A stretch of DNA of 58,779 bases from Candidatus Desantisbacteria bacterium CG1_02_49_89 (GTDB lineage: Bacteria > Desantisbacteria > UBA1551): the NCBI GenBank assembly GCA_001871075.1, contig MNUP01000123.1:1-58779 (forward strand), written 5' to 3'. This document shows, in pieces, positions 11,085-58,646 of this stretch. The position numbers and the translations under genes were made by a program. The notes beneath the pieces were generated by a model. That model worked only from the letters and a program-made list of their open reading frames with translations. It made no database searches and was not told where the DNA came from. How positions within the stretch are numbered: the first letter of the stretch is position 1; every line of letters begins with the position of its first letter.

Positions 11085-13049
11085 ATGTCGATACTCTTTT
11101 ATTCCGTATTCCTGCCAATTTTGGGCGGTCTGATATGCCTGCTGATCCCGGGCAGGATAAAGATAGTAAAGGAAATAATCGCGCTTCTGTCAAGTTATGC
11201 CGCTTTAGTTCTCGGCATTCTCATTTTCAGGAGCGGAAGCGCGGTATTTGTAAAGGACCTTGGTTTTCTGACGGGATTCTTAAAGATAGACCTTGACCTG
11301 CGCGCGGACAGCCTGAATTCCTTCATCGTTCTTTTTATCGCTTTGTTCGGTTTCCTTATCACTCTCTATTCCCTGAAGCTGATGCCGGGAAAGGAGAGGT
11401 CAAATGAATACTACGCGTACCTCCTGTTTAACGTCGGCGCGGCAACCGGGGCGGTGCTGTCAAATAACCTGCTGATGATGCTGGTTTTCTGGGATATCGT
11501 CCTGCTGTGCCTGTTCGGGATGCTCAGCACCGGCGGAATGAAAGCCGCTTCCGGAAGCGCTAAAAAATCTTTCATAATAATCGCAACAGCCGACTTCCTC
11601 ATGCTGCTGGGCATTCTCCTTGTGTGGTATATGACAGGGACGTTCAGGATTGACGTCATAACAAAGACCCCGTTTGCCGGCGATTTAAAATTAGGTGCCG
11701 TGGCTTTCCTGCTGCTTGCCTGCGGGGCCCTTGCAAAAGCGGGTTCAATGCCTTTCCACACGTGGATTCCCGACGCCGCAACCGAAGCCCCGGTGTCCGT
11801 AATGGCGTTTCTGCCTGCTGCGGTTGACAAGCTGTTAGGGATTTATCTCCTGGCAAGAATCGTCCTCAACCTGTTTGCGATGGTGCCCTGGCTGGGAATC
11901 ATCCTTATGTTCATAGGGGCCTTCACGATCATCGCCGCGGTTATGATGGCTCTGGTCCAGCACAACATGAAAAGGCTGCTTTCCTACCACGCGGTGAGCC
12001 AGGTGGGGTATATGATACTGGGCATAGGCACGGGCAACCCGGTGGGAATCGCAGGCGGTCTTTTCCATATGCTGAATCACACCATCTACAAGTCCTGCCT
12101 TTTTATGGGGAGCGGGGCAGTGGAGCAGAAGACCGGCACGACAGACCTTGAAAAATTAGGAGGGCTTTCTAAAACAATGCCCGTTACTTTTTTTGCAATG
12201 CTGGTGGCGGCGCTCTCCATATCCGGAGTGCCGCCCTTCAACGGCTTTGTTTCCAAGTGGATGATATATCAGGGCGTGATACAGTTCGCCGGTTCCCCGG
12301 CAACCGGCGGGGCAATGAGTTTCCTGAGCTGGCTGTTTCTTGTTGCGGCAATGCTGGGTTCCGCGCTTACGCTGGCGTCTTTCATGAAGTTGATATATTC
12401 AGCATTTTTAGGCCAACCTGTTAACGAGCCTGAAGGCTCTACTCCTGTTAAAGAAGTCGGCTGGACAATGTGGGTTCCCATGCTGGTGCTGGCGGTCCTG
12501 TGTATAGTGTTCGGAGTCTTCGCCCAGATTCCCCTGCGCGGGCTCATAGGCCCGGCTGTCCAGCTCAAATTTCCGGGTGTGCCTGAGGCGCTCAGGCTTT
12601 CCGGATTATGGAGCCCTACCCTCGCGACTGTCCTTATATTCGCAGGCCTGATAATCGGCTATATTATTTACGCCGCGGGAAAGGGAACCCGCCCGAGGAC
12701 CGATGTCTCCTATATCGGCGGTGAAGCCCCGCGCGGCGATATCAACCGCTTCCCCGGGACCGATTTCTACAACACGGTCAGGGAAATGAAGGGTCTTTCA
12801 GGCATCTACAGGGCTGCCGAAAAGAAATACTTGGATTTCTATGAGTGGGGAATAGGTTTCTTGAAAGCAATAGGGCATATCCTCTTCTACTGCGTTGACA
12901 GATTTGTTGACTGGTTGGTTGTCGGAGTTGGACGCCTTGCAAGGTTTTTCTCGTGGATCTTGAGGGAAGTCCACATAGGAGCCCTTCCCACTTATCTTGC
13001 CTGGTGCCTGATAGGGTTCGGTATTATATTATATGTTCTTGTGCGCTGA
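11085..13049 (+). CDS. Antiporter-like membrane subunit (NuoL/MrpA/HyfB-type)
   Basis: KAGSMPFHTWIPDA, MKRLLSYHAVSQVGY and GVPPFNGFVSKW motifs, with a long C-terminal extension. Confidence 0.88.
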   Translation: MSILFYSVFLPILGGLICLLIPGRIKIVKEIIALLSSYAALVLGILIFRSGSAVFVKDLGFLTGFLKIDLDLRADSLNSFIVLFIALFGFLITLYSLKLMPGKERSNEYYAYLLFNVGAATGAVLSNNLLMMLVFWDIVLLCLFGMLSTGGMKAASGSAKKSFIIIATADFLMLLGILLVWYMTGTFRIDVITKTPFAGDLKLGAVAFLLLACGALAKAGSMPFHTWIPDAATEAPVSVMAFLPAAVDKLLGIYLLARIVLNLFAMVPWLGIILMFIGAFTIIAAVMMALVQHNMKRLLSYHAVSQVGYMILGIGTGNPVGIAGGLFHMLNHTIYKSCLFMGSGAVEQKTGTTDLEKLGGLSKTMPVTFFAMLVAALSISGVPPFNGFVSKWMIYQGVIQFAGSPATGGAMSFLSWLFLVAAMLGSALTLASFMKLIYSAFLGQPVNEPEGSTPVKEVGWTMWVPMLVLAVLCIVFGVFAQIPLRGLIGPAVQLKFPGVPEALRLSGLWSPTLATVLIFAGLIIGYIIYAAGKGTRPRTDVSYIGGEAPRGDINRFPGTDFYNTVREMKGLSGIYRAAEKKYLDFYEWGIGFLKAIGHILFYCVDRFVDWLVVGVGRLARFFSWILREVHIGALPTYLAWCLIGFGIILYVLVR

Positions 13050-25279: not shown

Positions 25280-25840
25280 ATGAACACAAAGAACCCGCCG
25301 GAATTCAAAAAATTGAAGTCGATCGCAGAGCCATTCAAAAAAAGGCTTTATTTTGTCGGCATACTGACCAGGTATCTTAAGGGGGAAGCGGTAAAACCGG
25401 TTGTGGTCGGCGGTAACGCCGTAGAATTCTACACGTTCGGAGGTTATGCGACAGGGGATATTGACATCGTGTATCCGGAAACAGAGGCAGCGGGAAGCCT
25501 GCTTCGCGGATGGGGATTTAAAAAAGAAGGCAGGCACTGGTTTTCTGAGGATCTGGACATTATGATTGAAATACCTTCTTCCATGCTTGAGCCCGCGGAG
25601 AAAAAGAACGTCGTAAAAATTTTGGTGGAAGGGCTGGACGTTTATATAATCGGTATAGAGGATCTTATCGTGGACCGGCTGAATTCTTTTGTATGGTGGA
25701 AATACGCCAGAGACGGAGAATGGGCGGCTGAACTGATGGAAATCCACGATAAAAAGATTGACTGGAAATACCTGCGTAAGCGCAGCAGAGAAGAAGGCAC
25801 GCTCCATGCTTTGGCCAGGCTGAGGAAGAAGAAAAAATGA
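25280..25840 (+). CDS. Nucleotidyltransferase-fold protein (DUF6036-like)
   Basis: VVVGGNAVEFYT.G.YATGDIDI, EDLIVDRL and IDWKYL motifs. Confidence 0.75.
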   Translation: MNTKNPPEFKKLKSIAEPFKKRLYFVGILTRYLKGEAVKPVVVGGNAVEFYTFGGYATGDIDIVYPETEAAGSLLRGWGFKKEGRHWFSEDLDIMIEIPSSMLEPAEKKNVVKILVEGLDVYIIGIEDLIVDRLNSFVWWKYARDGEWAAELMEIHDKKIDWKYLRKRSREEGTLHALARLRKKKK

Positions 25841-26067
25841 GAAATTACGGGGATTTTGACAGATACGCAAGGGCAAACAGAAAGAAATATGCCGAGGCAA
25901 GAGGAAGGGTGCTTGTCTTGAATATTAAAAAGGACGGCTGCAAGCCGAAAGACGCAGACGAGATGAAGATTCTGCGCATTCTTGCGTCTGCCAGAATGAA
26001 ACGCTGGCAGAGAGAAGGGAAATTTAAAATAATTGGTCCGCGCGAATACGCGTTAAAAATATTTTAA
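25837..26067 (+). CDS. Small basic hypothetical protein
   Basis: 4-nt overlap with the NTase gene. Ends 10 nt before valS. Confidence 0.55.
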   Translation: MRNYGDFDRYARANRKKYAEARGRVLVLNIKKDGCKPKDADEMKILRILASARMKRWQREGKFKIIGPREYALKIF

Positions 26068-26077
26068 AGAGGCAAAA

Positions 26078-28963
26078 ATGGACATGCCGCCGCAGTACAA
26101 CCCGAAGGAAACCGAAGACAGGTGGTACAAATACTGGATGGACAAGGGCTATTTCAGGGCGGACAGCAAAAGCGGAAAAGAGCCTTTCTGCATGGTGATA
26201 CCTCCGCCCAATATCACAGGTTCCCTTCACATGGGCCACGCGCTCAATAACACCCTGCAGGACATCCTCACCCGCTGGAAAAGAATGAGCGGGTTCAGCG
26301 CCCTGTGGCTTCCCGGGACCGACCACGCGGGCATTGCCACCCAGAACGTTATTGAAAGGGAGCTGAAAAAAGAAGGGCTCACCCGCCAGCAGGTTGGAAG
26401 AGAAGATTTCATTAAGCGTGTGTGGAAATGGAGGGACAGCACAGGGGGCACCATAATCAACCAGCTGAAGAAGCTGGGCTGTTCGTGCGACTGGTCCAGG
26501 ACGCGTTTTACAATGGACGAAGGCCTTTCAAAAGCCGTCCAGCAGGTTTTTATAACGCTTTATAACGAAGGACTTATTTACAGGGACACATATATCATAA
26601 ACTGGTGCCCGAGGTGCCAGACAGCGCTTTCAGACCTGGAAGCAGAGCACCAGGAAGTTGCCGGCCATTTGTATTATGTGAAATATGAACTGATTGGCAA
26701 TGATATTAGAGTCAAAGTTGCGACGCACGACGCACAGCTTGCCCGCCAATCTTGCTGGGCGGGACGTACGACGCACGACTGTATCACAGTGGCAACCACC
26801 CGGCCCGAAACCATCTTCGGGGACGTGGCGATCGCGGTGAACCCGAAAGACAAGCGGTATAAGAATTTTATAGGCAAAAAGGTGCGCGTGCCTGAGCTGT
26901 GCGGCGGGAGAGAGATACCTGTTATTGCGGATGATTATGTTGACATCAAGTTCGGGACCGGCTGCCTTAAAATAACGCCGGCGCATGATCCCGCGGATTT
27001 CGAGATAGGCCGCAGGCATAAGCTCGAGGCGATAAACGTCATATCCGCTGACGGAAAAATGAACGGGGAAGCGGGGAAATACGCGGGGCTTGACAGGTTC
27101 GAGTGCCGCAAGGCCCTTGTCGAGGATCTGAAGAACCAGGGACGCCTGGAGAAGACCGAGGACTACAAATACACGATGGGTTCCTGCTACCGCTGCCACA
27201 CATATGTTGAACCCTACCTTTCAAAACAGTGGTTTGTGCGGATGAAGGAACTGGCGAAACCCGCTATAAAGGCGGTTAAGGACGGCAAGGTAAGATTCGT
27301 GCCGAAGAGCTGGGGAAAGACCTATTATCTGTGGATGGACAATATCAGGGACTGGTGCATTTCAAGGCAGATATGGTGGGGGCACAGGATACCTGTCTGG
27401 TACTGTAAAAATGAAAAATGCCCTCCGGTTGTTTCCACCTCACGGCCGGCAAAGTGCCCGGAATGCGGCGGCGCGGAATTTTCGCAGGACGAAGACGTGC
27501 TGGACACCTGGTTCAGCTCAGCGCTCTGGCCTTTTTCAACCCTGGGCTGGCCCGATAAAACCGATGACCTCAGATTTTTCTACCCGACAACGGTCCTCTC
27601 AACGGCTTTTGACATAATTTTCTTCTGGGTCGCGAGGATGATCATAATGGGGATGCATTTCATGAAAGACGTTCCTTTCAGGACCGTTTACATACACGCG
27701 CTCGTGCGCGACCCCGAAGGCCAGAAGATGAGCAAGTCCAGGGGGAATGTCGTGGACCCGCTGGGGATCATGGATGTTTACGGCACGGACGCGCTAAGGT
27801 TCACGATGTCATCCCTGGCAGTGAAGGGAAGGGACATATACCTTTCAGAGGAGCGCATACAGGGGTACAGGAATTTCATGAACAAGATATGGAACGCCAG
27901 CAGGTTTATACTCATGAACCTTGCTAATAGCTCAATAGCTCAATTGTCCAATAGCTCAATTGTAAAGGAATTATCTTCTAATTCGACGCACGACCCGCTA
28001 GGGCGACGCACGACGCACGACGAATTGACGGTGGCTGACAGGTGGATCATGTCGCGCCTGAACCAGGTCACAAAAGAAGTAACAGGCCATCTTGAAAAGT
28101 ATGATTTTGACAAGGCAAGCCTCGCGCTATACGATTTCTTCTGGCACGAGTTCTGCGACTGGTACCTTGAAATTGCCAAACTACAACTATCAGTGACCAG
28201 TGGTCAGTGGCCAGCAGACAGCAAGCTGCAGACAGCAGACAATGAAAAGACTGCTCACTACTCACTACTCACCACTCAACACTGTCTTTTCCGGACCCTG
28301 GAGCAGAGCTTGCGTTTAATGCATCCGTTCGTGCCGTTTATTACAGAGGAAATATGGCAAACCTTAAAGACAGTGGACAGTGGACAGTGGTCAGTGGACA
28401 GTGAAAGCAATAATTCGATGCACGAGAGTATCATGGTGAGCAAATGGCCGGAATACAATAAGAAGGAAACTGACGCAAAGGCAACAGCCCAGATGGAACT
28501 GGTAAAAGCGATAGTGTTCGCGGTCAGGAATATCCGTTCAGAGCTGAACATACACCCCGGGGCAAAAATAAAAGCGATTTTTAGTTACACTGCCAAAAAG
28601 CCGCTTAAGGCAATTGATATCCTGAACTCGAACGCAGCATACATTAAATGGCTGGCAGGCATAGAAGAGATGAGTGTTGGGGAAGACCTTACGAAACCCA
28701 GGCCCGCGGCTGTGGCTGTGGTTAAAGGGATCGAGATCTACATACCGCTTGAAGGGCTGATCGACATCCAGAAGGAAACTGACAGGATAAAGAAGGAGAT
28801 CGAAAAAGCCGGCAATGACCTGAAGGGCCTAAAGGCAAGGCTCAGGAACAAGGAATTCCTCAAGAAGGCGCCTGAAGAAGTTGTGACTAAAGAGAAAGAC
28901 AGGAAAATAGAAACAGAAGCGAGGCTGGGCAAGCTGAAGGAAAATCTCAAAATGCTGGCTTGA
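26078..28963 (+). CDS. valS: Valine--tRNA ligase with four repeat-derived in-frame insertions
   Basis: PPPNITGSLHMGH, DHAGIATQ, ATTRPET, DWCISRQIWWGH, KMSKS and the C-terminal coiled-coil arm. Confidence 0.98.
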   Translation: MDMPPQYNPKETEDRWYKYWMDKGYFRADSKSGKEPFCMVIPPPNITGSLHMGHALNNTLQDILTRWKRMSGFSALWLPGTDHAGIATQNVIERELKKEGLTRQQVGREDFIKRVWKWRDSTGGTIINQLKKLGCSCDWSRTRFTMDEGLSKAVQQVFITLYNEGLIYRDTYIINWCPRCQTALSDLEAEHQEVAGHLYYVKYELIGNDIRVKVATHDAQLARQSCWAGRTTHDCITVATTRPETIFGDVAIAVNPKDKRYKNFIGKKVRVPELCGGREIPVIADDYVDIKFGTGCLKITPAHDPADFEIGRRHKLEAINVISADGKMNGEAGKYAGLDRFECRKALVEDLKNQGRLEKTEDYKYTMGSCYRCHTYVEPYLSKQWFVRMKELAKPAIKAVKDGKVRFVPKSWGKTYYLWMDNIRDWCISRQIWWGHRIPVWYCKNEKCPPVVSTSRPAKCPECGGAEFSQDEDVLDTWFSSALWPFSTLGWPDKTDDLRFFYPTTVLSTAFDIIFFWVARMIIMGMHFMKDVPFRTVYIHALVRDPEGQKMSKSRGNVVDPLGIMDVYGTDALRFTMSSLAVKGRDIYLSEERIQGYRNFMNKIWNASRFILMNLANSSIAQLSNSSIVKELSSNSTHDPLGRRTTHDELTVADRWIMSRLNQVTKEVTGHLEKYDFDKASLALYDFFWHEFCDWYLEIAKLQLSVTSGQWPADSKLQTADNEKTAHYSLLTTQHCLFRTLEQSLRLMHPFVPFITEEIWQTLKTVDSGQWSVDSESNNSMHESIMVSKWPEYNKKETDAKATAQMELVKAIVFAVRNIRSELNIHPGAKIKAIFSYTAKKPLKAIDILNSNAAYIKWLAGIEEMSVGEDLTKPRPAAVAVVKGIEIYIPLEGLIDIQKETDRIKKEIEKAGNDLKGLKARLRNKEFLKKAPEEVVTKEKDRKIETEARLGKLKENLKMLA

Positions 28964-29032
28964 TAATTCTGTTAAATCCCCCTCATTCCCCCTTTACAAA
29001 GGGGGATGGAAGGGGGATTTCGCAAACACAAA

Positions 29033-29887
29033 ATGTATATTATAAAGAGAAGGTTTTTATTTTGGGCAGCGTGTTTTATATTTACCGGCTTATCCATCGC
29101 AGGAGCGGATGCTTACTATGAGAACCTGACCGGGAAAAAATTCAAGACAACAGGGGAAGTAAGGGGAGTGATGAGCGAGGACGGCATGATTTCCGTCATG
29201 ATGGAAAGGGAAGACGGGGAATGCATTGTCGTGTACTGGGATAACAGCACCTACAATTCGCTCAAGAGCGTGCTGTCCAGCGGTAACCGGGTATCGGCGG
29301 TGGTAAAGGTGGTTGATGGCGGCAGCATAATCGGGGTTTCCGCGGAAAGGTTGGCAAGGATCATAGACACGAAAAAAACCTCGACCTTGCTGGATAAAAA
29401 CAGGAAGCTGAGCTCGTCGGACCTGCAGGCGATAAACGTTTACGAGAAAACAATAAAATATTTCAATCCCAAACTTACCAGCGCCGAAGTACGGAAGATC
29501 TCTTCAAGCATCCTGACTTACAGCAGGCTGCACAACGTAGACCCAAGGCTTGTTGTAGCGGTTATAGCGGTGGAATCGGATTTCAAAATTGACGCCCGCT
29601 CTGTCAAGGGTGCCGTGGGCCTGGGCCAGCTTATGCCCCAGACCGCGAAGAGCCTGAAGGTTAACCCGCATATTATAGAAGAAAATATCCGCGGAACCAC
29701 GTCCTACCTGCGTTTCTGCATGGAGCAGTGGAAGAAATATCCTTACCTCACCGTCCCTCTCGCGCTCGCTGCCTACAACGCAGGGCCTGCGGCAGTCGCC
29801 AAGCACGGCGGGATCCCGCCCTATTACGAAACCCAGAACTACGTCATAAGGGTCATGGACCTCTACGCGAAACTCTGTAGCAAATAA
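29033..29887 (+). CDS. Lytic transglycosylase (SLT domain)
   Basis: AVIAVESDF..ARSVKGAVGLGQLMP, ALAAYNAG and ETQNYV motifs, with an N-terminal signal/TM segment. Confidence 0.9.
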   Translation: MYIIKRRFLFWAACFIFTGLSIAGADAYYENLTGKKFKTTGEVRGVMSEDGMISVMMEREDGECIVVYWDNSTYNSLKSVLSSGNRVSAVVKVVDGGSIIGVSAERLARIIDTKKTSTLLDKNRKLSSSDLQAINVYEKTIKYFNPKLTSAEVRKISSSILTYSRLHNVDPRLVVAVIAVESDFKIDARSVKGAVGLGQLMPQTAKSLKVNPHIIEENIRGTTSYLRFCMEQWKKYPYLTVPLALAAYNAGPAAVAKHGGIPPYYETQNYVIRVMDLYAKLCSK

Positions 29888-42928: not shown

Positions 42929-44866
42929 ATGGAAGAAATAAAAGGTTCGAGGCAGAGCAAAATAATCGCGGCAGGCCTGCTGTTCATCATATTTTTCGCA
43001 TCCGCGGGGCTGGTGTTCTGGAGGCTTATAAAGGACAACGATGACCTGGCGCGGGTTATTTTCGTGCAGGTGATCGCCCTTATTCTTTTTATGGTCTGGG
43101 TTACAAAAGAGGGCGGCATAAAATTCAGGAAAAACCCGCTGAACCTGCCTGTTCTGCTGTATGCCGGCGCGAACGCGGTCGCGCTGTTTGCCACTTCGAA
43201 TATTTACGAGAGCCTGACCGCTATGCTGAAGATCGTTATTTACTGCCTGATCTTTTTTCTCGCGGCGAACAACCTGAAAACAAAGGATGCGGAAAGGTCT
43301 TCCGTAACCGTTGTGATCATGGGTTTTGTGATCGCAGTCATAGGCCTCCTGCAGTATTTCGGCCTTGACTGGTTCAGGTTCCTGTATTCTGCCGCACCTA
43401 CGAACCGCGTGTTCTCGATACTGGGCAATCCCGATTTCCTCGGGGGTTTCCTGGCGCTGGTGCTTCCGCTTTCCCTCGTCCTGGTGCTGAATTTCGGGTT
43501 CAAGGGAAGGGAAGGGATCTTCGGTTCGATCTCTTTTGCCGTGATACTCCTCTGCCTGCTCCTGACAGCGACCCGCAGCGCGCTCATCGCGTTCATCGGT
43601 TCCCTTATCTTCCTCAGCATAATCGTTTTGCTGCAGAAAGGGATGAAAAACCTTAAAAAGAGATGGATCTTTATGCTGGTCTTTTCGGTTGTCATAGTCC
43701 TGATCCTCGGGTTTTCCGGCAGGGGCAGGGTCAAGAGCTTCCTATTCAGGTTCGCTTCTGTTTTAAGCCCGCAGACGCTCAAAACAGACGGCGCTGTGCA
43801 GTATAGATTAGCCATATGGAAAACAAGCCTGCTTATGTTCAAAGAACATCCGGTAGCCGGCGTCGGCACAGGGGTTTTCAAGCTCCATTACCCGTTTTAC
43901 CAGGCGAAGCTGCGCCAGGCGGATCCGTTGATCCCGTTTTCCTCCTCGCAGGAGTCGCGCGTTCACAATGAATATCTTCAGGCGCTTGCCGAGACAGGGG
44001 TCATCGGGATCGCGGGCTTTTTCTGGCTTGCGGTATGCGCGATATTCTACGGGGTAAAATACATAGCCGGCGCGAAGGAGCCGAGGCAGCGGATCTTTCT
44101 TATCGGGCTGGTATCAGGCGCGTCAGTTGTGCTGCTGGACAGCGTTTTCGCTTTTCCTTTCCACCTTACTTCGCACGCGACTCTTTTCTGGCTGTTCCTG
44201 GGGTTGATAGTAGTGATCGGTGAGAGCGCTGGAACTCAGATTTCCGCAAAAGATGCGGGTAAACCCGCGGGGCAGGAACCGGTTAAACAGAGATCAAAGA
44301 TAAAGAAGAAGATGATCGTCAGCAGGCGTTCCTGGGAACTGATATCGGTCGCGTGGGTCGCTTCCGCAGTCCTGATAATACTTATACTGCGTTCTTTTTT
44401 CGGCGCGTTCTATTACAAGCAGGGCATAGTATACGGCAACAACCAGATGGACCAGCAGTCGATCGAAAGCTACAAACGGGCGATAAAGCTTTCACCCTAT
44501 GACCCGGAGATACATTTCACCTGGGGATATATCTGCCTGAACAGCGGTATGATAGACGACGGCCTGGCTGAATTCAAACTCGTGGAAAAACTCTACCCGT
44601 GGAACGAGGACAACCTCCTCAACCTGGGAGTGGTTTATAACAACAAGAGGGAACCTGGAAAAGCGCTTGATTATTTCAGGAAGGCGATAATGCTGAACCC
44701 CGGGATAGGCGCGGCGTATTTCAACGTGGCTGGGATATACCTGAATTACTACAGCAACTCGCCCTGGGCGAAAGAAGAGGCGGTGAACTACTGCAGGAAA
44801 GCCGTTGAAATAGAACCGTCTAACAGTTATTACAGGGAAGTGCTGGAGAAGCTGATAAAAGAGTAA
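42929..44866 (+). CDS. O-antigen ligase-like membrane protein with TPRs (paralog)
   Basis: SILGNPDFLGG, TATRSA, HPVAGVG and HNEYLQALAETG motifs, with TPRs. Confidence 0.85.
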   Translation: MEEIKGSRQSKIIAAGLLFIIFFASAGLVFWRLIKDNDDLARVIFVQVIALILFMVWVTKEGGIKFRKNPLNLPVLLYAGANAVALFATSNIYESLTAMLKIVIYCLIFFLAANNLKTKDAERSSVTVVIMGFVIAVIGLLQYFGLDWFRFLYSAAPTNRVFSILGNPDFLGGFLALVLPLSLVLVLNFGFKGREGIFGSISFAVILLCLLLTATRSALIAFIGSLIFLSIIVLLQKGMKNLKKRWIFMLVFSVVIVLILGFSGRGRVKSFLFRFASVLSPQTLKTDGAVQYRLAIWKTSLLMFKEHPVAGVGTGVFKLHYPFYQAKLRQADPLIPFSSSQESRVHNEYLQALAETGVIGIAGFFWLAVCAIFYGVKYIAGAKEPRQRIFLIGLVSGASVVLLDSVFAFPFHLTSHATLFWLFLGLIVVIGESAGTQISAKDAGKPAGQEPVKQRSKIKKKMIVSRRSWELISVAWVASAVLIILILRSFFGAFYYKQGIVYGNNQMDQQSIESYKRAIKLSPYDPEIHFTWGYICLNSGMIDDGLAEFKLVEKLYPWNEDNLLNLGVVYNNKREPGKALDYFRKAIMLNPGIGAAYFNVAGIYLNYYSNSPWAKEEAVNYCRKAVEIEPSNSYYREVLEKLIKE

Positions 44867-45021
44867 TTATGAATTATGAGTTATGAATTATGAGTCAACA
44901 GCAAGGATTTTTAATTAATATTTTCTTAAATATTATTTCTTAACATCTTTTCATAACATTTTCACCTAACAGATTAACACGCAACCCGCCAACACGTAAC
45001 AGTTTTTTACAGGAGGCAGAC

Positions 45022-48948: not shown

Positions 48949-49082
48949 TTATTTAATTATGAATTATGAATGATGAGTTATGAGTTAAAAACAAGGTATT
49001 TAATTTGAATAAAATTCCATGCTGTTAATTCATAATTCATAACTCATAATTCATAATTTCAGTAGAAAATAGAGGAGATAGA

Positions 49083-57683: not shown

Positions 57684-58646
57684 ATGAGCGTATTCTACAA
57701 AGAAATAAGGAGATGGTGGGGGCAGGCGATAGTGATAACGCTTGCCGTAATGGTTTCGGGCTGCGCGGCAAGGCCTTACAAAATGACGAATTTCTTCACT
57801 TCAAAGGCCATCAATGATCTGCGGGAAAAAAGGGTGGCTGTCATTCCCTTCAAGAACCTATCCCCGATCCCCGAGGCAACAGATATGCTTACGGATGAGT
57901 TCAACCTGCAGCTGGGGAAGCTGGGAAAATTCAGGCTGATCGAGAGGATAAGTATACAGGAACTGTTCAAAGAGCAGGACCTTGACCCCGAGCGCATAGA
58001 CGAAGCCACCGCGGTAAAGATCGGAAAAATGCTGGGAGCGAACGCGATAATACTGGGCACGGTCACCACTTATTACCCGTATAAATACAAGGAAAAAAAG
58101 GAAGCCGAGGAAAAAGAGAAGAAAGAGCTTGAAAGGGCAAGGATAGAAGCCGCTGGAGCGCCTAAAACCGTAGTGATCATTGAGCAGCAACCCGAAAAAC
58201 AACCGGTATTTGTGCCGCCGGGACAGCAGAAAGATAAGGAAAAGGGCTGGGAGAAGGACAAGGATAAAGAAAAGGAAAAAGATAAGGAAAAAGATAAGGA
58301 AAAAGATAAGGACAAGGATAAGGATAAAAAAAAGGAAGAAACCGAAGTAAAGAAAGACGAGGGTAATCCCTGGGTCGCTCTCGCGATCGTCGGCGGAATA
58401 ATACTCACTGCCGGGATACTTTTCTTTGCTTTGAGCCCCAAGCCTACCGCGGAGATCGGTATAAGCGTGCGCATGGTAAACGTTGAGACAGGCGAGCAGT
58501 TGTGGCAGGCGAAAGAGACCTTCAAGGGCAATGACCCCAGGATCCAGGCGCTTGTTGACCCGCAGGACAGGGATAAACTGGTGAAGGACGTTGAATTCCT
58601 CAGCCAGACCCTGTGCCGCGAATTCGCTCTTACAATAGAAAAATAA
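57684..58646 (+). CDS. CsgG/HfaB-like lipoprotein with a Lys/Asp/Glu-rich insertion
   Basis: Lipobox-like VSGC, RVAVIPF, LIERISIQELFKEQ, AVKIGKMLGANAIILG and VRMVNVETGE.LW motifs. Confidence 0.75.
   Translation: MSVFYKEIRRWWGQAIVITLAVMVSGCAARPYKMTNFFTSKAINDLREKRVAVIPFKNLSPIPEATDMLTDEFNLQLGKLGKFRLIERISIQELFKEQDLDPERIDEATAVKIGKMLGANAIILGTVTTYYPYKYKEKKEAEEKEKKELERARIEAAGAPKTVVIIEQQPEKQPVFVPPGQQKDKEKGWEKDKDKEKEKDKEKDKEKDKDKDKDKKKEETEVKKDEGNPWVALAIVGGIILTAGILFFALSPKPTAEIGISVRMVNVETGEQLWQAKETFKGNDPRIQALVDPQDRDKLVKDVEFLSQTLCREFALTIEK

What the first reader, a model, noticed from the sequence alone, without database searches (positions are those of the whole stretch)
26700..28405. Essential valS carries four in-frame insertions made of intergenic-style tandem repeats
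Seen in the sequence: (1) 26721-26779, a GACGCAC array with a nested 27-bp hairpin, encoding ATHDAQLARQSCWAGRTTHD just before VATTRPET. (2) 27923-28022, a CAATAGCT 8-mer array plus a GACGCAC array, encoding ANSSIAQLSNSSIV..STHDPLGRRTTHD. (3) 28190-28283, CAGTGNN / CAGACAG / CACTACT arrays, encoding SVTSGQWPADSKLQTADNEKTAHYSLLTTQH. (4) 28369-28403, GACAGTG x5, encoding TVDSGQWSVDSE. The 7- and 8-nt units are not multiples of 3, yet the frame is intact at every site, which implies selection on an actively invaded housekeeping gene. The sites appear to be variable loops (inference). This parallels Rickettsia palindromic elements but involves several distinct repeat types.
Basis: partly seen in the sequence, partly recalled or inferred. 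Interest (0 to 1): 0.75.

Follow-up and report, generated by a model that had tools for sequence, protein, structure and literature searches.

The report
Repeat-built loop inserts in valyl-tRNA synthetase
The only valyl-tRNA synthetase gene of an uncultivated groundwater bacterium carries four extra, in-frame stretches copied from the genome's swarm of 7- and 8-base tandem repeats, all in floppy surface loops, which shows how junk-like repeat DNA can settle inside an essential enzyme without breaking it.

Summary
valS (26078-28963, 961 aa) is intact and is the only valS found in the genome. Compared with 118 homologues, it is longer at four places, by about 24, 20, 18 and 13 residues. Each extra stretch is made of 7/8-nt tandem arrays. 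Insert 1 also holds a 27-nt hairpin element that has about 40 copies genome-wide.

The units are not multiples of three, yet all four inserts keep the frame. For inserts 2 and 3 the valS frame is the only stop-free frame of six. In a good AlphaFold model, the four lowest-confidence segments are exactly the four inserts. The same loops vary in length in other lineages too.

The genome holds about 800 strong arrays (0 after shuffling; about 30 times fewer per kb in a same-order relative). 147 ORFs carry one internally, including topA, priA, leuS, glyS, carA and carB. Inserts 1, 2 and 4 have 91-98% identical copies elsewhere, so they probably arrived as ready-made blocks. Contigs from independent sequencing runs support the assembly, and no length variants were seen.

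My reading is that these are tolerated, translated passenger loops left by purifying selection. This is a new variant of known kinds (STRR/SDR repeats, Rickettsia palindromic elements). This scan had already noted the same class in this genome and in other genomes.

The parts
26078..28963 (+). valS, valyl-tRNA synthetase, 961 aa, intact; the only valS found in the genome
   Evidence: ORF and translation. Pfam tRNA-synt_1, Anticodon_1 and Val_tRNA-synt_C. E 4.8e-230 to T. thermophilus ValRS 1gax. Own-genome search finds only IleRS and LeuRS paralogues besides it.
26721..26779 (+). Insert 1 (aa 215-234, within the extra segment aa ~209-235): GACGCAC-type heptamer arms around a nested hairpin element. 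It sits 4 residues before the editing-domain TTRPET motif.
   Evidence: Sequence; TRF. Absent from the same-order relative G001, which reads PFMNGDYIVVATT there. A 57-nt copy at 98% identity lies at C149:25231-25287. pLDDT 45-50.
26736..26762 (+). Nested 27-nt element AGCTTGCCCGCCAATCTTGCTGGGCGG. Its stem is CCCGCC/GGCGGG, and it has no stop codon in any of the six frames.
   Evidence: 47 copies with up to 5 mismatches. For the 23-nt core, 40 copies with up to 3 mismatches; in 18 of these 40 the unit to the right recurs on the left. All six frames of insert 1 are open.
27923..28022 (+). Insert 2 (aa 616-649): a CAATAGCT/CAATTGTC 8/16-nt array (27926-27963), a spacer, then a GACGCAC array interrupted by GACCCGCTAGGGC (about 27985-28022). 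It lies between the last helix of the catalytic body and the anticodon-binding domain.
   Evidence: The right part has 32-nt copies at 97% in carA (C129:22234-22265), C38:18693-18724 and priA (C81:44163-44193). The left part has a 43-nt copy at 91% at C74:2496-2538. Only the valS frame is stop-free, 1 of 6. pLDDT 57-63.
28190..28283 (+). Insert 3 (aa 705-735): 13 phased, degenerate heptamers (CAGTGNN x3, CAGCAGA-type x4, CTCACTA-type x4). It sits at the tip of a helix hairpin in the anticodon-binding domain.
   Evidence: Only the valS frame is stop-free. pLDDT 51 for residues 711-720, between helices 677-707 and 720-748. Only 2 weak matches elsewhere, so it is probably the oldest insert.
28369..28403 (+). 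Insert 4 (aa 764-776): GACAGTG x5, encoding TVDSGQWSVDS, in the loop after helix 753-767.
   Evidence: TRF 5.0 copies, 92% match. A 32-nt copy at 97% lies in a glutamate-synthase ORF (C129:36133-36164), and another on C60. pLDDT 50 for residues 771-780.

Best explanation
valS is a working, single-copy gene. Four of its surface loops have been filled by pieces of the genome's own short-repeat DNA: tandem arrays of 7-8-nt units, one of them carrying a 27-nt hairpin element.

The genome is flooded with such arrays. Copies that land in genes survive only if three things hold: the added length is a multiple of three, the reading frame meets no stop codon, and the site is a loop that tolerates extra residues. 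What remains in valS is therefore translated as four disordered, hydrophilic loop extensions of about 13-24 residues. These have no function of their own (passengers).

What is shown: the repeat make-up, the intact frame, the loop positions, lineage specificity, the genome-wide scale, and near-identical copies elsewhere.

What is inferred:
- That the inserts are translated and harmless.
- That they arrived as ready-made blocks (copy-paste or recombination with other arrays) rather than growing unit by unit in place. In a sole essential gene, every single-unit step would be a frameshift.

The enzyme that moves or seeds the blocks is unknown.
For: - Extra length at four sites only. Interval lengths are 35/46/43/22 residues against medians 11/26/25/9 in 118 homologues. 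Three of four control intervals do not differ in length; the fourth differs by 3 residues.
- A good AlphaFold2 model (119-sequence alignment; mean pLDDT 88.5, pTM 0.86). Its best PDB match is 1gax_A, TM 0.87 normalised to the target. Its lowest 10-residue blocks (211-230, 621-650, 711-720, 771-780) coincide with the inserts.
- All positions invariant across the 119 aligned ValRS sequences are kept, including HMGH (51-54) and KMSKS (550-554).
- Frame kept at four independent non-triplet inserts. Stops in the non-used frames: insert 2 has 1-4 in each of the other five; insert 3 has at least 1 in each. The intergenic sister copy of insert 2's left part has a TAA in the frame that valS uses.
- Genome-wide scale: 812 strong period-7/8 TRF rows against 0 in a triplet-shuffled genome. 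One such row in an 89-kb sample of a same-order relative.
- Of 778 non-redundant strong arrays, 469 lie outside, 122 at the edge of, and 187 inside crude ORFs that cover 86% of the DNA.
- Units with stops on both strands: 10 inside, 48 at edges, 147 outside. Stop-free units: 82/18/87.
- 147 ORFs hold a strong internal array. Of the 40 with most array DNA besides valS, 35 have Pfam families, including TopA, PriA, LeuRS, GlyS, MnmG, CarA, CarB, PurL, IspG, RecG and RecN.
- Block copies: 57 nt at 98% (insert 1); 32 nt at 97% at three loci and 43 nt at 91% including non-repeat flank (insert 2); 32 nt at 97% (insert 4).
- Lineage-specific: G001 (78-81% identical) lacks insert 1, has a different site 2, and shows no 7/8 arrays in its valS fragment. 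The 66-70% identical relatives have unrelated sequences at these sites.
- Assembly: 24 of 24 listed groundwater or aquifer runs hold at least half of the sampled words. Contigs of X13 (26739-28400, 0 gaps), X10 and X19 bridge inserts 2 and 3, and overlapping contigs cover insert 1.
- Relaxed constraint: 6 of 8 distinct substitutions among cluster members lie in or at the inserts, which make up about 11% of the protein.
Against: - There is no RNA or protein evidence that the inserts are retained, and no enzymology.
- Low pLDDT suggests disorder, not harmlessness. Whether any insert touches the tRNA was not measured.
- No presence/absence or copy-number polymorphism was seen in 4 laid runs or in 5 full-length cluster variants, all 961 aa. 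Ongoing mobility is therefore not shown.
- Target-site duplications at the valS inserts are unclear. Only a weak duplication-like similarity flanks insert 1.
- No hairpin-core copy lies within 1 kb of any of the 10 Y1-transposase genes.
- DNA of the closest relatives (P0003-P0009) could not be obtained.
- The ORF set for the genome-wide counts is crude: longest ORFs of at least 100 aa, so stop-free arrays can lengthen ORFs artificially. The C149 copy, for example, lies at a gene's 3' end in another frame.
Confidence: 0.8

Rival explanations
1. In-place birth: each array grew inside valS by replication slippage from a chance proto-repeat, with no transfer from elsewhere.
For: Heptamer arrays are classic slippage products. 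Passages read in PMC4679880 report earlier work finding heptanucleotide repeats the most abundant class in most genomes, with slippage proposed as the cause. Insert 3 is degenerate and has almost no copy elsewhere. The start of insert 1 (GCGACGCAC) resembles the native GCAACCACC that follows it.
Against: In a sole essential gene, any single-unit (7 or 8 nt) step is a frameshift. Inserts 1, 2 and 4 share 32-57-nt stretches at 91-98% with other loci; these include a nested 27-nt element, a nested GACCCGC.AGGGC piece and non-repeat flank. No length variants were seen.
Confidence: 0.15
2. Functional or regulated inserts. Either the arrays form a contingency (phase-variation) switch, or they encode new binding loops that selection keeps for their own sake.
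For: The same ValRS loops carry repeat-like inserts in several unrelated lineages.
Against: The insert sequences are unrelated between close relatives. Substitutions concentrate in them, 6 of 8. The same blocks sit in unrelated enzymes and between genes. There is no copy-number variation in valS. Switching off the sole valS would be lethal.
Confidence: 0.04
3. The inserts are removed before the enzyme is made (intron- or intein-like), or the assembly is chimeric.
For: None found. There are no RNA runs to test removal.
Against: If the segments were spliced out, frame and stop-freedom would not be needed. Yet all four keep the frame, and two are open only in the valS frame. No Rfam family matches 25500-29500 at E up to 0.1. 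Segments of 13-25 residues are far below intein size (own knowledge). Independent runs' contigs bridge the inserts. Five full-length database variants are all 961 aa.
Confidence: 0.01

Closest known systems
Cyanobacterial STRR heptamer arrays with nested small dispersed repeats (SDR). Source: Elhai et al. 2008, Genome Res 18:1484. The paper is not held; I saw it only as reference 43 and a mention in PMC3116915. Its content is recalled.
   Same: Very many tandem heptamer arrays of diverse units, mostly between genes. A 21-27-nt hairpin-forming element is found embedded within such arrays. Here the element is 27 nt, with 40-47 copies, sitting inside arrays of at least 8 different units.
   Different: This is a different organism, an uncultivated groundwater bacterium and not a cyanobacterium. 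The unit and element sequences are its own. Octamers are also abundant. The emphasis here is on in-frame residence in essential enzymes, four times in one gene and in 147 ORFs overall. Homology to the SDR families could not be tested.
Rickettsia palindromic elements (RPE). Passages read in the review PMC10969869.
   Same: Small repeats inserted in frame into unrelated metabolic and housekeeping genes and read through as extra peptide. They are reported as compatible with protein fold and function.
   Different: RPEs are palindromic elements of about 150 bp, each family encoding a conserved peptide. Here the inserts are 35-100-nt mosaics of 7-8-nt tandem units from many families. They show no significant palindromic fold, and the peptide depends on phase.
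Heptanucleotide simple-sequence repeats of bacteria: TAACTGA repeats of Beggiatoaceae (PMC4679880, passages read) and G-rich GGGAATC / GGGGA(C/T)T repeats of Xanthomonas and Nostoc (PMC4692102, abstract and passages read).
   Same: Abundant tandem heptamers enriched between genes. Stop codons in the unit restrict where arrays can lie. There are a few intragenic cases, mostly at protein ends.
   Different: Those genomes have one dominant unit, under-represented in coding DNA and discussed as regulatory. Here there are 367 distinct 7/8-nt units, and a quarter of strong arrays (187 of 778) lie inside ORFs, including mid-protein loops of essential enzymes.
REP/REPIN elements with RAYT (Y1) transposases (PMC3116915, abstract and discussion passage read).
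   Same: Short GC-rich hairpins in tens of copies. The genome has 10 Y1_Tnp matches over Pfam's cut-off.
   Different: No hairpin-core copy lies within 1 kb of any of the 10 Y1 genes. The element sits inside direct tandem arrays, not in inverted doublets.

Membership tests
Valyl-tRNA synthetase (class Ia) | Catalytic HIGH and KMSKS motifs; tRNA-synt_1, Anticodon_1 and Val_tRNA-synt_C domains; Thr-rich editing motif | tested here: met
   HMGH at 51-54, KMSKS at 550-554, TTRPET at 240-245. Pfam hits 3.3e-144, 2.6e-40 and 9.8e-13. 1gax E 4.8e-230. Fold TM 0.87.
STRR-type heptamer arrays | Tandem 7-nt units in very many arrays, enriched between genes | tested here: met
   998 period-7 and 497 period-8 non-redundant arrays; 57% and 62% of them lie outside ORFs that cover 86% of the DNA. 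0 strong arrays after shuffling.
STRR-type heptamer arrays | Heterocystous cyanobacterial host and the named STRR unit sequences (recalled) | tested here: not met
   The best named ValRS relatives are candidate-phylum bacteria, none cyanobacterial. The commonest units are AATTATG, AACGTGTC, ACGACGT and ACGACGC.
Small dispersed repeats (SDR) nested in heptamer arrays | Dispersed 21-27-nt element embedded within tandem heptamers | tested here: met
   A 27-nt element with 47 copies at up to 5 mismatches. For the core, in 18 of 40 copies the right-hand unit recurs on the left.
Small dispersed repeats (SDR) nested in heptamer arrays | Conserved hairpin supported by compensatory changes; sequence relation to SDR1-8 | tested here: inconclusive
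   A 6-bp stem is visible, but the fold of insert 1 is not better than shuffles (z -1.19). No covariation test was run.
Rickettsia palindromic elements | In-frame insertion into unrelated genes with read-through | tested here: met
   Frame kept at 4 of 4 inserts. The same blocks occur in carA, priA and a glutamate-synthase gene.
Rickettsia palindromic elements | Palindromic unit of about 100-150 bp with a family-specific conserved peptide | tested here: not met
   The inserts are 35-100 nt and made of tandem direct units. Fold z-scores are -0.3 to -1.9. The PriA copy is read on the opposite strand and gives a different peptide.
MITE | Terminal inverted repeats plus target-site duplication | tested here: inconclusive
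   No clear terminal inverted repeats. There is only a weak duplication-like similarity beside insert 1. A clear 14-nt flanking direct repeat was seen only in another lineage's valS (L044).
Intron or intein | Known ribozyme structure, or an intein-sized domain with splice-junction residues | tested here: not met
   No Rfam match at E up to 0.1. The segments are 13-25 residues.

The most novel reading that the evidence does not exclude
The array-hairpin-array composites may be an undescribed class of very small mobile DNA. On this reading they spread as ready-made, frame-tolerant blocks in several uncultivated bacterial phyla and repeatedly colonise the same permissive loops of core enzymes. 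That would make them a general, fast-turnover source of protein length growth, and a natural map of where essential proteins accept insertions.

Hints: a 14-nt flanking duplication lies around a repeat insert at the same ValRS loop in an unrelated lineage (L044). Heptamer arrays also lie inside valS of three further lineages, one at this gene's site 4 and two in the zinc-knuckle loop.
Probability: 0.25. Interest if true: 0.75.

Novelty: new variant of a known kind. Interest (0 to 1): 0.5.

Why it matters
The finding gives a clean natural example of non-triplet repeat DNA living inside essential genes, with purifying selection visible in frame, stop avoidance and loop choice.

It has practical consequences. 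Such inserts inflate protein lengths, break metagenome assemblies at repeats, create spurious low-complexity 'domains', and mark loops that tolerate insertions.

If the blocks prove mobile, they would rank among the smallest mobile elements known. They would also be a driver of protein evolution in candidate phyla. My five literature searches found no paper describing this for such bacteria.

Tried and rejected
- The first AlphaFold2 run, on the 18-sequence alignment, was too poor to use (mean pLDDT 59.7). It was repeated with 119 sequences.
- The metagenome scan and the genome-collection scan returned only relatives at 54% identity or less. The DNA of the 66-70% identical proteins P0003-P0009 was not obtained, and the organism's name was not confirmed.
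- No RNA holder was listed among the sequencing runs. All laid runs were contigs, not raw reads. The joints listed have short sides (36 nt or less), were laid at 90% likeness, and look like other organisms' valS; I did not count them.
- DNA folding of the four inserts gave no significant structure.
- Rfam search: no match.
- Link between the hairpin element and Y1 transposases: none within 1 kb. One reverse-transcriptase fragment lies at a contig end and was not pursued.
- Strand bias of the stop-free unit ACGACGC inside ORFs was 13 against 5, which is not significant by my binomial estimate. The 20/0 and 0/16 biases of AACGTGTC and AACGTGT are forced by stop codons.
- The C149 twin of insert 1 first looked like a second in-frame insertion read in the same frame. 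It actually lies at the 3' end of a glutamine-amidotransferase ORF in another frame.
- Elhai et al. 2008 could not be read.
Full report
**What is there**

The ORF 26078-28963 (+) is open and encodes a 961-residue protein. It carries the class-I synthetase, anticodon-binding and ValRS C-terminal arm domains. It matches Thermus thermophilus ValRS (1gax) at E 4.8e-230. A search of the whole 2.48-Mb, 150-contig genome (93.5% complete) finds no second valS. The only other hits are the IleRS and LeuRS paralogues, plus one 21-residue match that is a copy of insert 1.

- Site 1: GACGCAC-type arms (26721-26735 and 26763-26779) around a 27-nt element (26736-26762).
- Site 2: an 8/16-nt array (27926-27963), then a GACGCAC array interrupted by GACCCGCTAGGGC (about 27985-28022).
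- Site 3: thirteen heptamers in one phase (28191-28281).
- Site 4: GACAGTG x5 (28369-28403).

The real gene has 7 period-7/8 TRF rows. In 200 codon shuffles the mean is 0.105 and the maximum 2.

**They are inserts, and they sit in loops**

Against 1gax, the alignment breaks at query residues 209-235 and 615-643, and opens gaps near 707-730 and 765-780. In an alignment of 119 ValRS sequences I measured the intervals between invariant anchors. They hold 35, 46, 43 and 22 residues here, against medians of 11, 26, 25 and 9. Only 5, 5, 5 and 7 of the 118 other sequences are as long. Three control intervals do not differ in length, and the fourth differs by 3 residues.

The excess of about 75 residues accounts for 961 aa against the usual ~885 aa.

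A first structure prediction on 18 sequences was poor. With 119 sequences the model reached mean pLDDT 88.5 and pTM 0.86. Its ten-residue blocks at or below pLDDT 63 are 211-230 (50, 45), 621-650 (63, 57, 62), 711-720 (51) and 771-780 (50). These are exactly the four inserts. The model matches 1gax_A with TM 0.87 normalised to the target.

By the model's secondary structure:
- Insert 1 lies between strands 189-206 and 235-240, just before the TTRPET editing motif.
- Insert 2 lies between helix 591-616 and helix 652-673.
- Insert 3 lies at the tip of the helix pair 677-707 / 720-748.
- Insert 4 lies after helix 753-767.

Whether any insert touches the tRNA was not measured.

**Lineage specificity**

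The one same-order genome held (G001) has a valS fragment that is 78-81% identical. It reads PFMNGDYIVVATT at site 1, so the ~25-residue insert is absent. It has a different, shorter site 2, and no period-7/8 array. The 66-70% identical database proteins have unrelated sequences of other lengths at all four sites. Only the tail of site 4 (SNNSMHES) is shared with one of them.

**The genome-wide background**

TRF finds 998 period-7 and 497 period-8 non-redundant arrays. It finds 812 strong rows (at least 3 copies, score at least 40), that is 0.33 per kb. A triplet-shuffled genome has 0. An 89-kb sample of G001 has 1.

With a crude ORF set (longest ORFs of at least 100 aa; 86% of the DNA), 57% of heptamer arrays and 62% of octamer arrays lie outside ORFs. 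Of 778 strong non-redundant arrays, 187 are inside, 122 at the edge and 469 outside ORFs.

Stop codons in the unit predict where an array lies:
- Units with stops on both strands: 10 inside, 48 edge, 147 outside.
- Stop-free units: 82 inside, 18 edge, 87 outside.
- The commonest unit, AATTATG: 103 arrays, 1 inside an ORF.
- The valS unit GACGCAC: 34 arrays, 18 inside.

This contrast is partly forced, because an array with stops cannot lie within an ORF.

147 ORFs hold a strong internal array, and valS ranks fifth by array DNA. I scanned the 40 ORFs with the most array DNA besides valS. Thirty-five match Pfam families. These include topoisomerase I, PriA, LeuRS, GlyRS beta, MnmG, CarA, CarB, PurL, IspG, RecG, RecN, HypF and RibD. 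valS is thus a rich example of a general condition, not a special target.

**Signs of selection and of translation**

Each of the four inserts keeps the frame of the conserved blocks around it. Insert 1 is open in all six frames. For inserts 2 and 3, the valS frame is the only one without a stop.

In insert 2, the third octamer is CAATTGTC where a perfect CAATAGCT would place TAG in frame (read). The 91%-identical copy at C74:2496-2538, which appears to lie between genes, has TAA in the frame that valS uses.

If the segments were removed from the RNA, none of this would be needed. No Rfam family matches the region.

Among 14 other members of the 90% cluster, the four further full-length variants (five with P0001) are all 961 aa. 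Six of 8 distinct substitutions fall in or at the inserts, which make up about 11% of the protein. The numbers are small, and assembly errors in repeats cannot be excluded.

**How they probably got there**

- Insert 1 has a 57-nt copy at 98% identity at C149:25231-25287, arms and hairpin together.
- The right half of insert 2, including its odd GACCC-GC(A/T)A-GGGC piece, recurs at 97% over 31-32 nt in carA, in priA (opposite strand) and on C38. In carA it encodes RTTHDPQGRRTT just before the GICLGHQ motif.
- The left half of insert 2 recurs with its non-repeat tail.
- Insert 4 recurs at 97% in a glutamate-synthase ORF.
- Insert 3 is degenerate and nearly unique, so it is probably the oldest.

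The 27-nt element has 47 copies at up to 5 mismatches. It is embedded in arrays of many different units, most of which begin with GAC or GAT.

In a sole essential gene, a single 7- or 8-nt slippage step is a frameshift. I therefore infer that the inserts arrived as pre-formed blocks, and that only those with a length divisible by three survived.

This step is inference. Target-site duplications in valS are unclear. No mobile enzyme is linked: there are 10 Y1-transposase genes, none within 1 kb of a hairpin copy, and one reverse-transcriptase fragment.

**Assembly**

All 24 listed groundwater or aquifer runs hold at least half of the sampled words; nine of them may be sources of this DNA. In four runs not flagged as possible sources:
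- One contig of X13 spans 26739-28400 without gaps.
- Contigs of X10 and X19 bridge inserts 2 and 3.
- Overlapping contigs cover insert 1, breaking inside the repeated hairpin as expected for a repeat.
- No indel and no insert-less joint was listed.

These are contigs, which drop rare variants, so absence of polymorphism is weak evidence.

**Other lineages**

The same four loops are length-variable across the 119 sequences. Several unrelated proteins carry 7-residue-periodic inserts there, for example GSREQGAGSREQG, SKPALVGADSKPALVGADSKPA and TDRRTDGQTDRRTD.

At DNA level, 4 of 99 other valS loci were checked and hold heptamer or octamer arrays inside valS:
- L044 at site 2, flanked by a 14-nt direct repeat.
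- L074 at site 4.
- L023 and L028 in the zinc-knuckle loop.

**Comparison with what is known**

The closest parallel is the cyanobacterial pairing of STRR heptamer arrays with nested 21-27-nt small dispersed repeats (Elhai et al. 2008; not held here, content recalled, seen only as a citation in PMC3116915).

Rickettsia palindromic elements share the in-frame residence in unrelated genes (PMC10969869, passages). They differ in being ~150-bp palindromes with family-specific peptides.

TAACTGA repeats (PMC4679880, passages) and G-rich heptamers (PMC4692102, abstract and passages) are single-unit, mostly intergenic systems.

Five searches found no paper describing many-unit heptamer/octamer mosaics filling loops of essential enzymes in candidate-phylum bacteria.

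Earlier notes of this scan report the same class in this genome and in several others, including ValRS of an Omnitrophota bacterium. I treated these as leads only. The name Desantisbacteria comes from those notes. Here I saw only that Desantisbacteria ValRS sequences, at 55% identity, are among the best named hits.

**Verdict**

valS carries four translated, tolerated passenger loops drawn from a genome-wide repeat expansion and filtered by purifying selection. This is a new variant of known kinds and of moderate interest.

Noticed in passing
L044:860-1020 (metagenome valS locus, 47% identical protein): At the loop equivalent to site 2, an insert of about 110 nt is made of GAGTGAA x4.7 and CACCAGAG x4.9. 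It is flanked on both sides by the 14-nt direct repeat CTTGAGGATTATGA (encoding LEDYD), which looks like a target-site duplication.
   Followed up: partly
L074:3705-3734; L023:2816-2839; L028:2852-2879: Other lineages' valS genes hold heptamer arrays in frame. L074 has a G-rich AGGGGTC x4.3 at site 4. L023 has ACGGAAC x3.4 next to a GC hairpin, and L028 has TGAAGAG x4; both of these are in the zinc-knuckle loop.
   Followed up: partly
G000:C129:22200-22600 (carA, minus strand): carA carries two repeat inserts. One encodes RTTHDPQGRRTT directly before the GICLGHQ motif (recalled as the glutamine-amidotransferase active-site motif). A larger CCAGTGT-array block with a nested GC hairpin lies in the linker between its two domains.
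   Followed up: partly
G000:C81:44150-44320 (priA): priA has a composite of about 150 nt, read in frame. It consists of an antisense GACGCAC array with the same nested piece as valS insert 2, then CAGTGGC x4.4 and ACTCACC x4.4. This is the same pairing of arm types as valS insert 3.
   Followed up: partly
G000:C29:10555-13044 (leuS): leuS holds two strong heptamer arrays (CAGTGTC x4.4 at 11271, ATCCAGG x4.9 at 11674). It also holds an antisense copy of the 27-nt hairpin within GACACTG arms at 12528-12550.
   Followed up: no
window 44865-44893, 48955-48987 and genome-wide: The commonest unit, AATTATG (103 arrays), has stops in the repeat. It is almost never inside ORFs: 1 inside, 20 at ORF edges, 82 outside.
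   Followed up: no
G000, e.g. C14:9252-9278, C21:24389-24415, C50:60954-60980: A second sub-family shares the left half of the 27-nt element but ends ...CTTGGTGGAGGG. It is always preceded by TTAAGTTCTCTTA and followed by TTCCCTGT, with at least 8 copies. It may be a different element.
   Followed up: no
G000: C83:3536-3898 and nine further places; C119:37201-37527: There are ten matches to the Y1 (IS200/RAYT-type) transposase family over Pfam's cut-off, and one reverse-transcriptase fragment at a contig end.
   Followed up: partly
window 58230-58337: A 108-nt purine-rich array of AAGGAn/AAAGAT units (periods 6, 12, 24, 36) lies at the window's end. If coding, it would give a Lys/Asp/Glu-rich tract.
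   Followed up: no
window 26739-26752, 28167-28211, 28383-28400: Contigs of the public runs end inside or beside the inserts. Many database fragments of this protein also start or stop there (residues 234, 238, 733, 748, 766, 774). The repeats therefore break short-read assemblies.
   Followed up: partly
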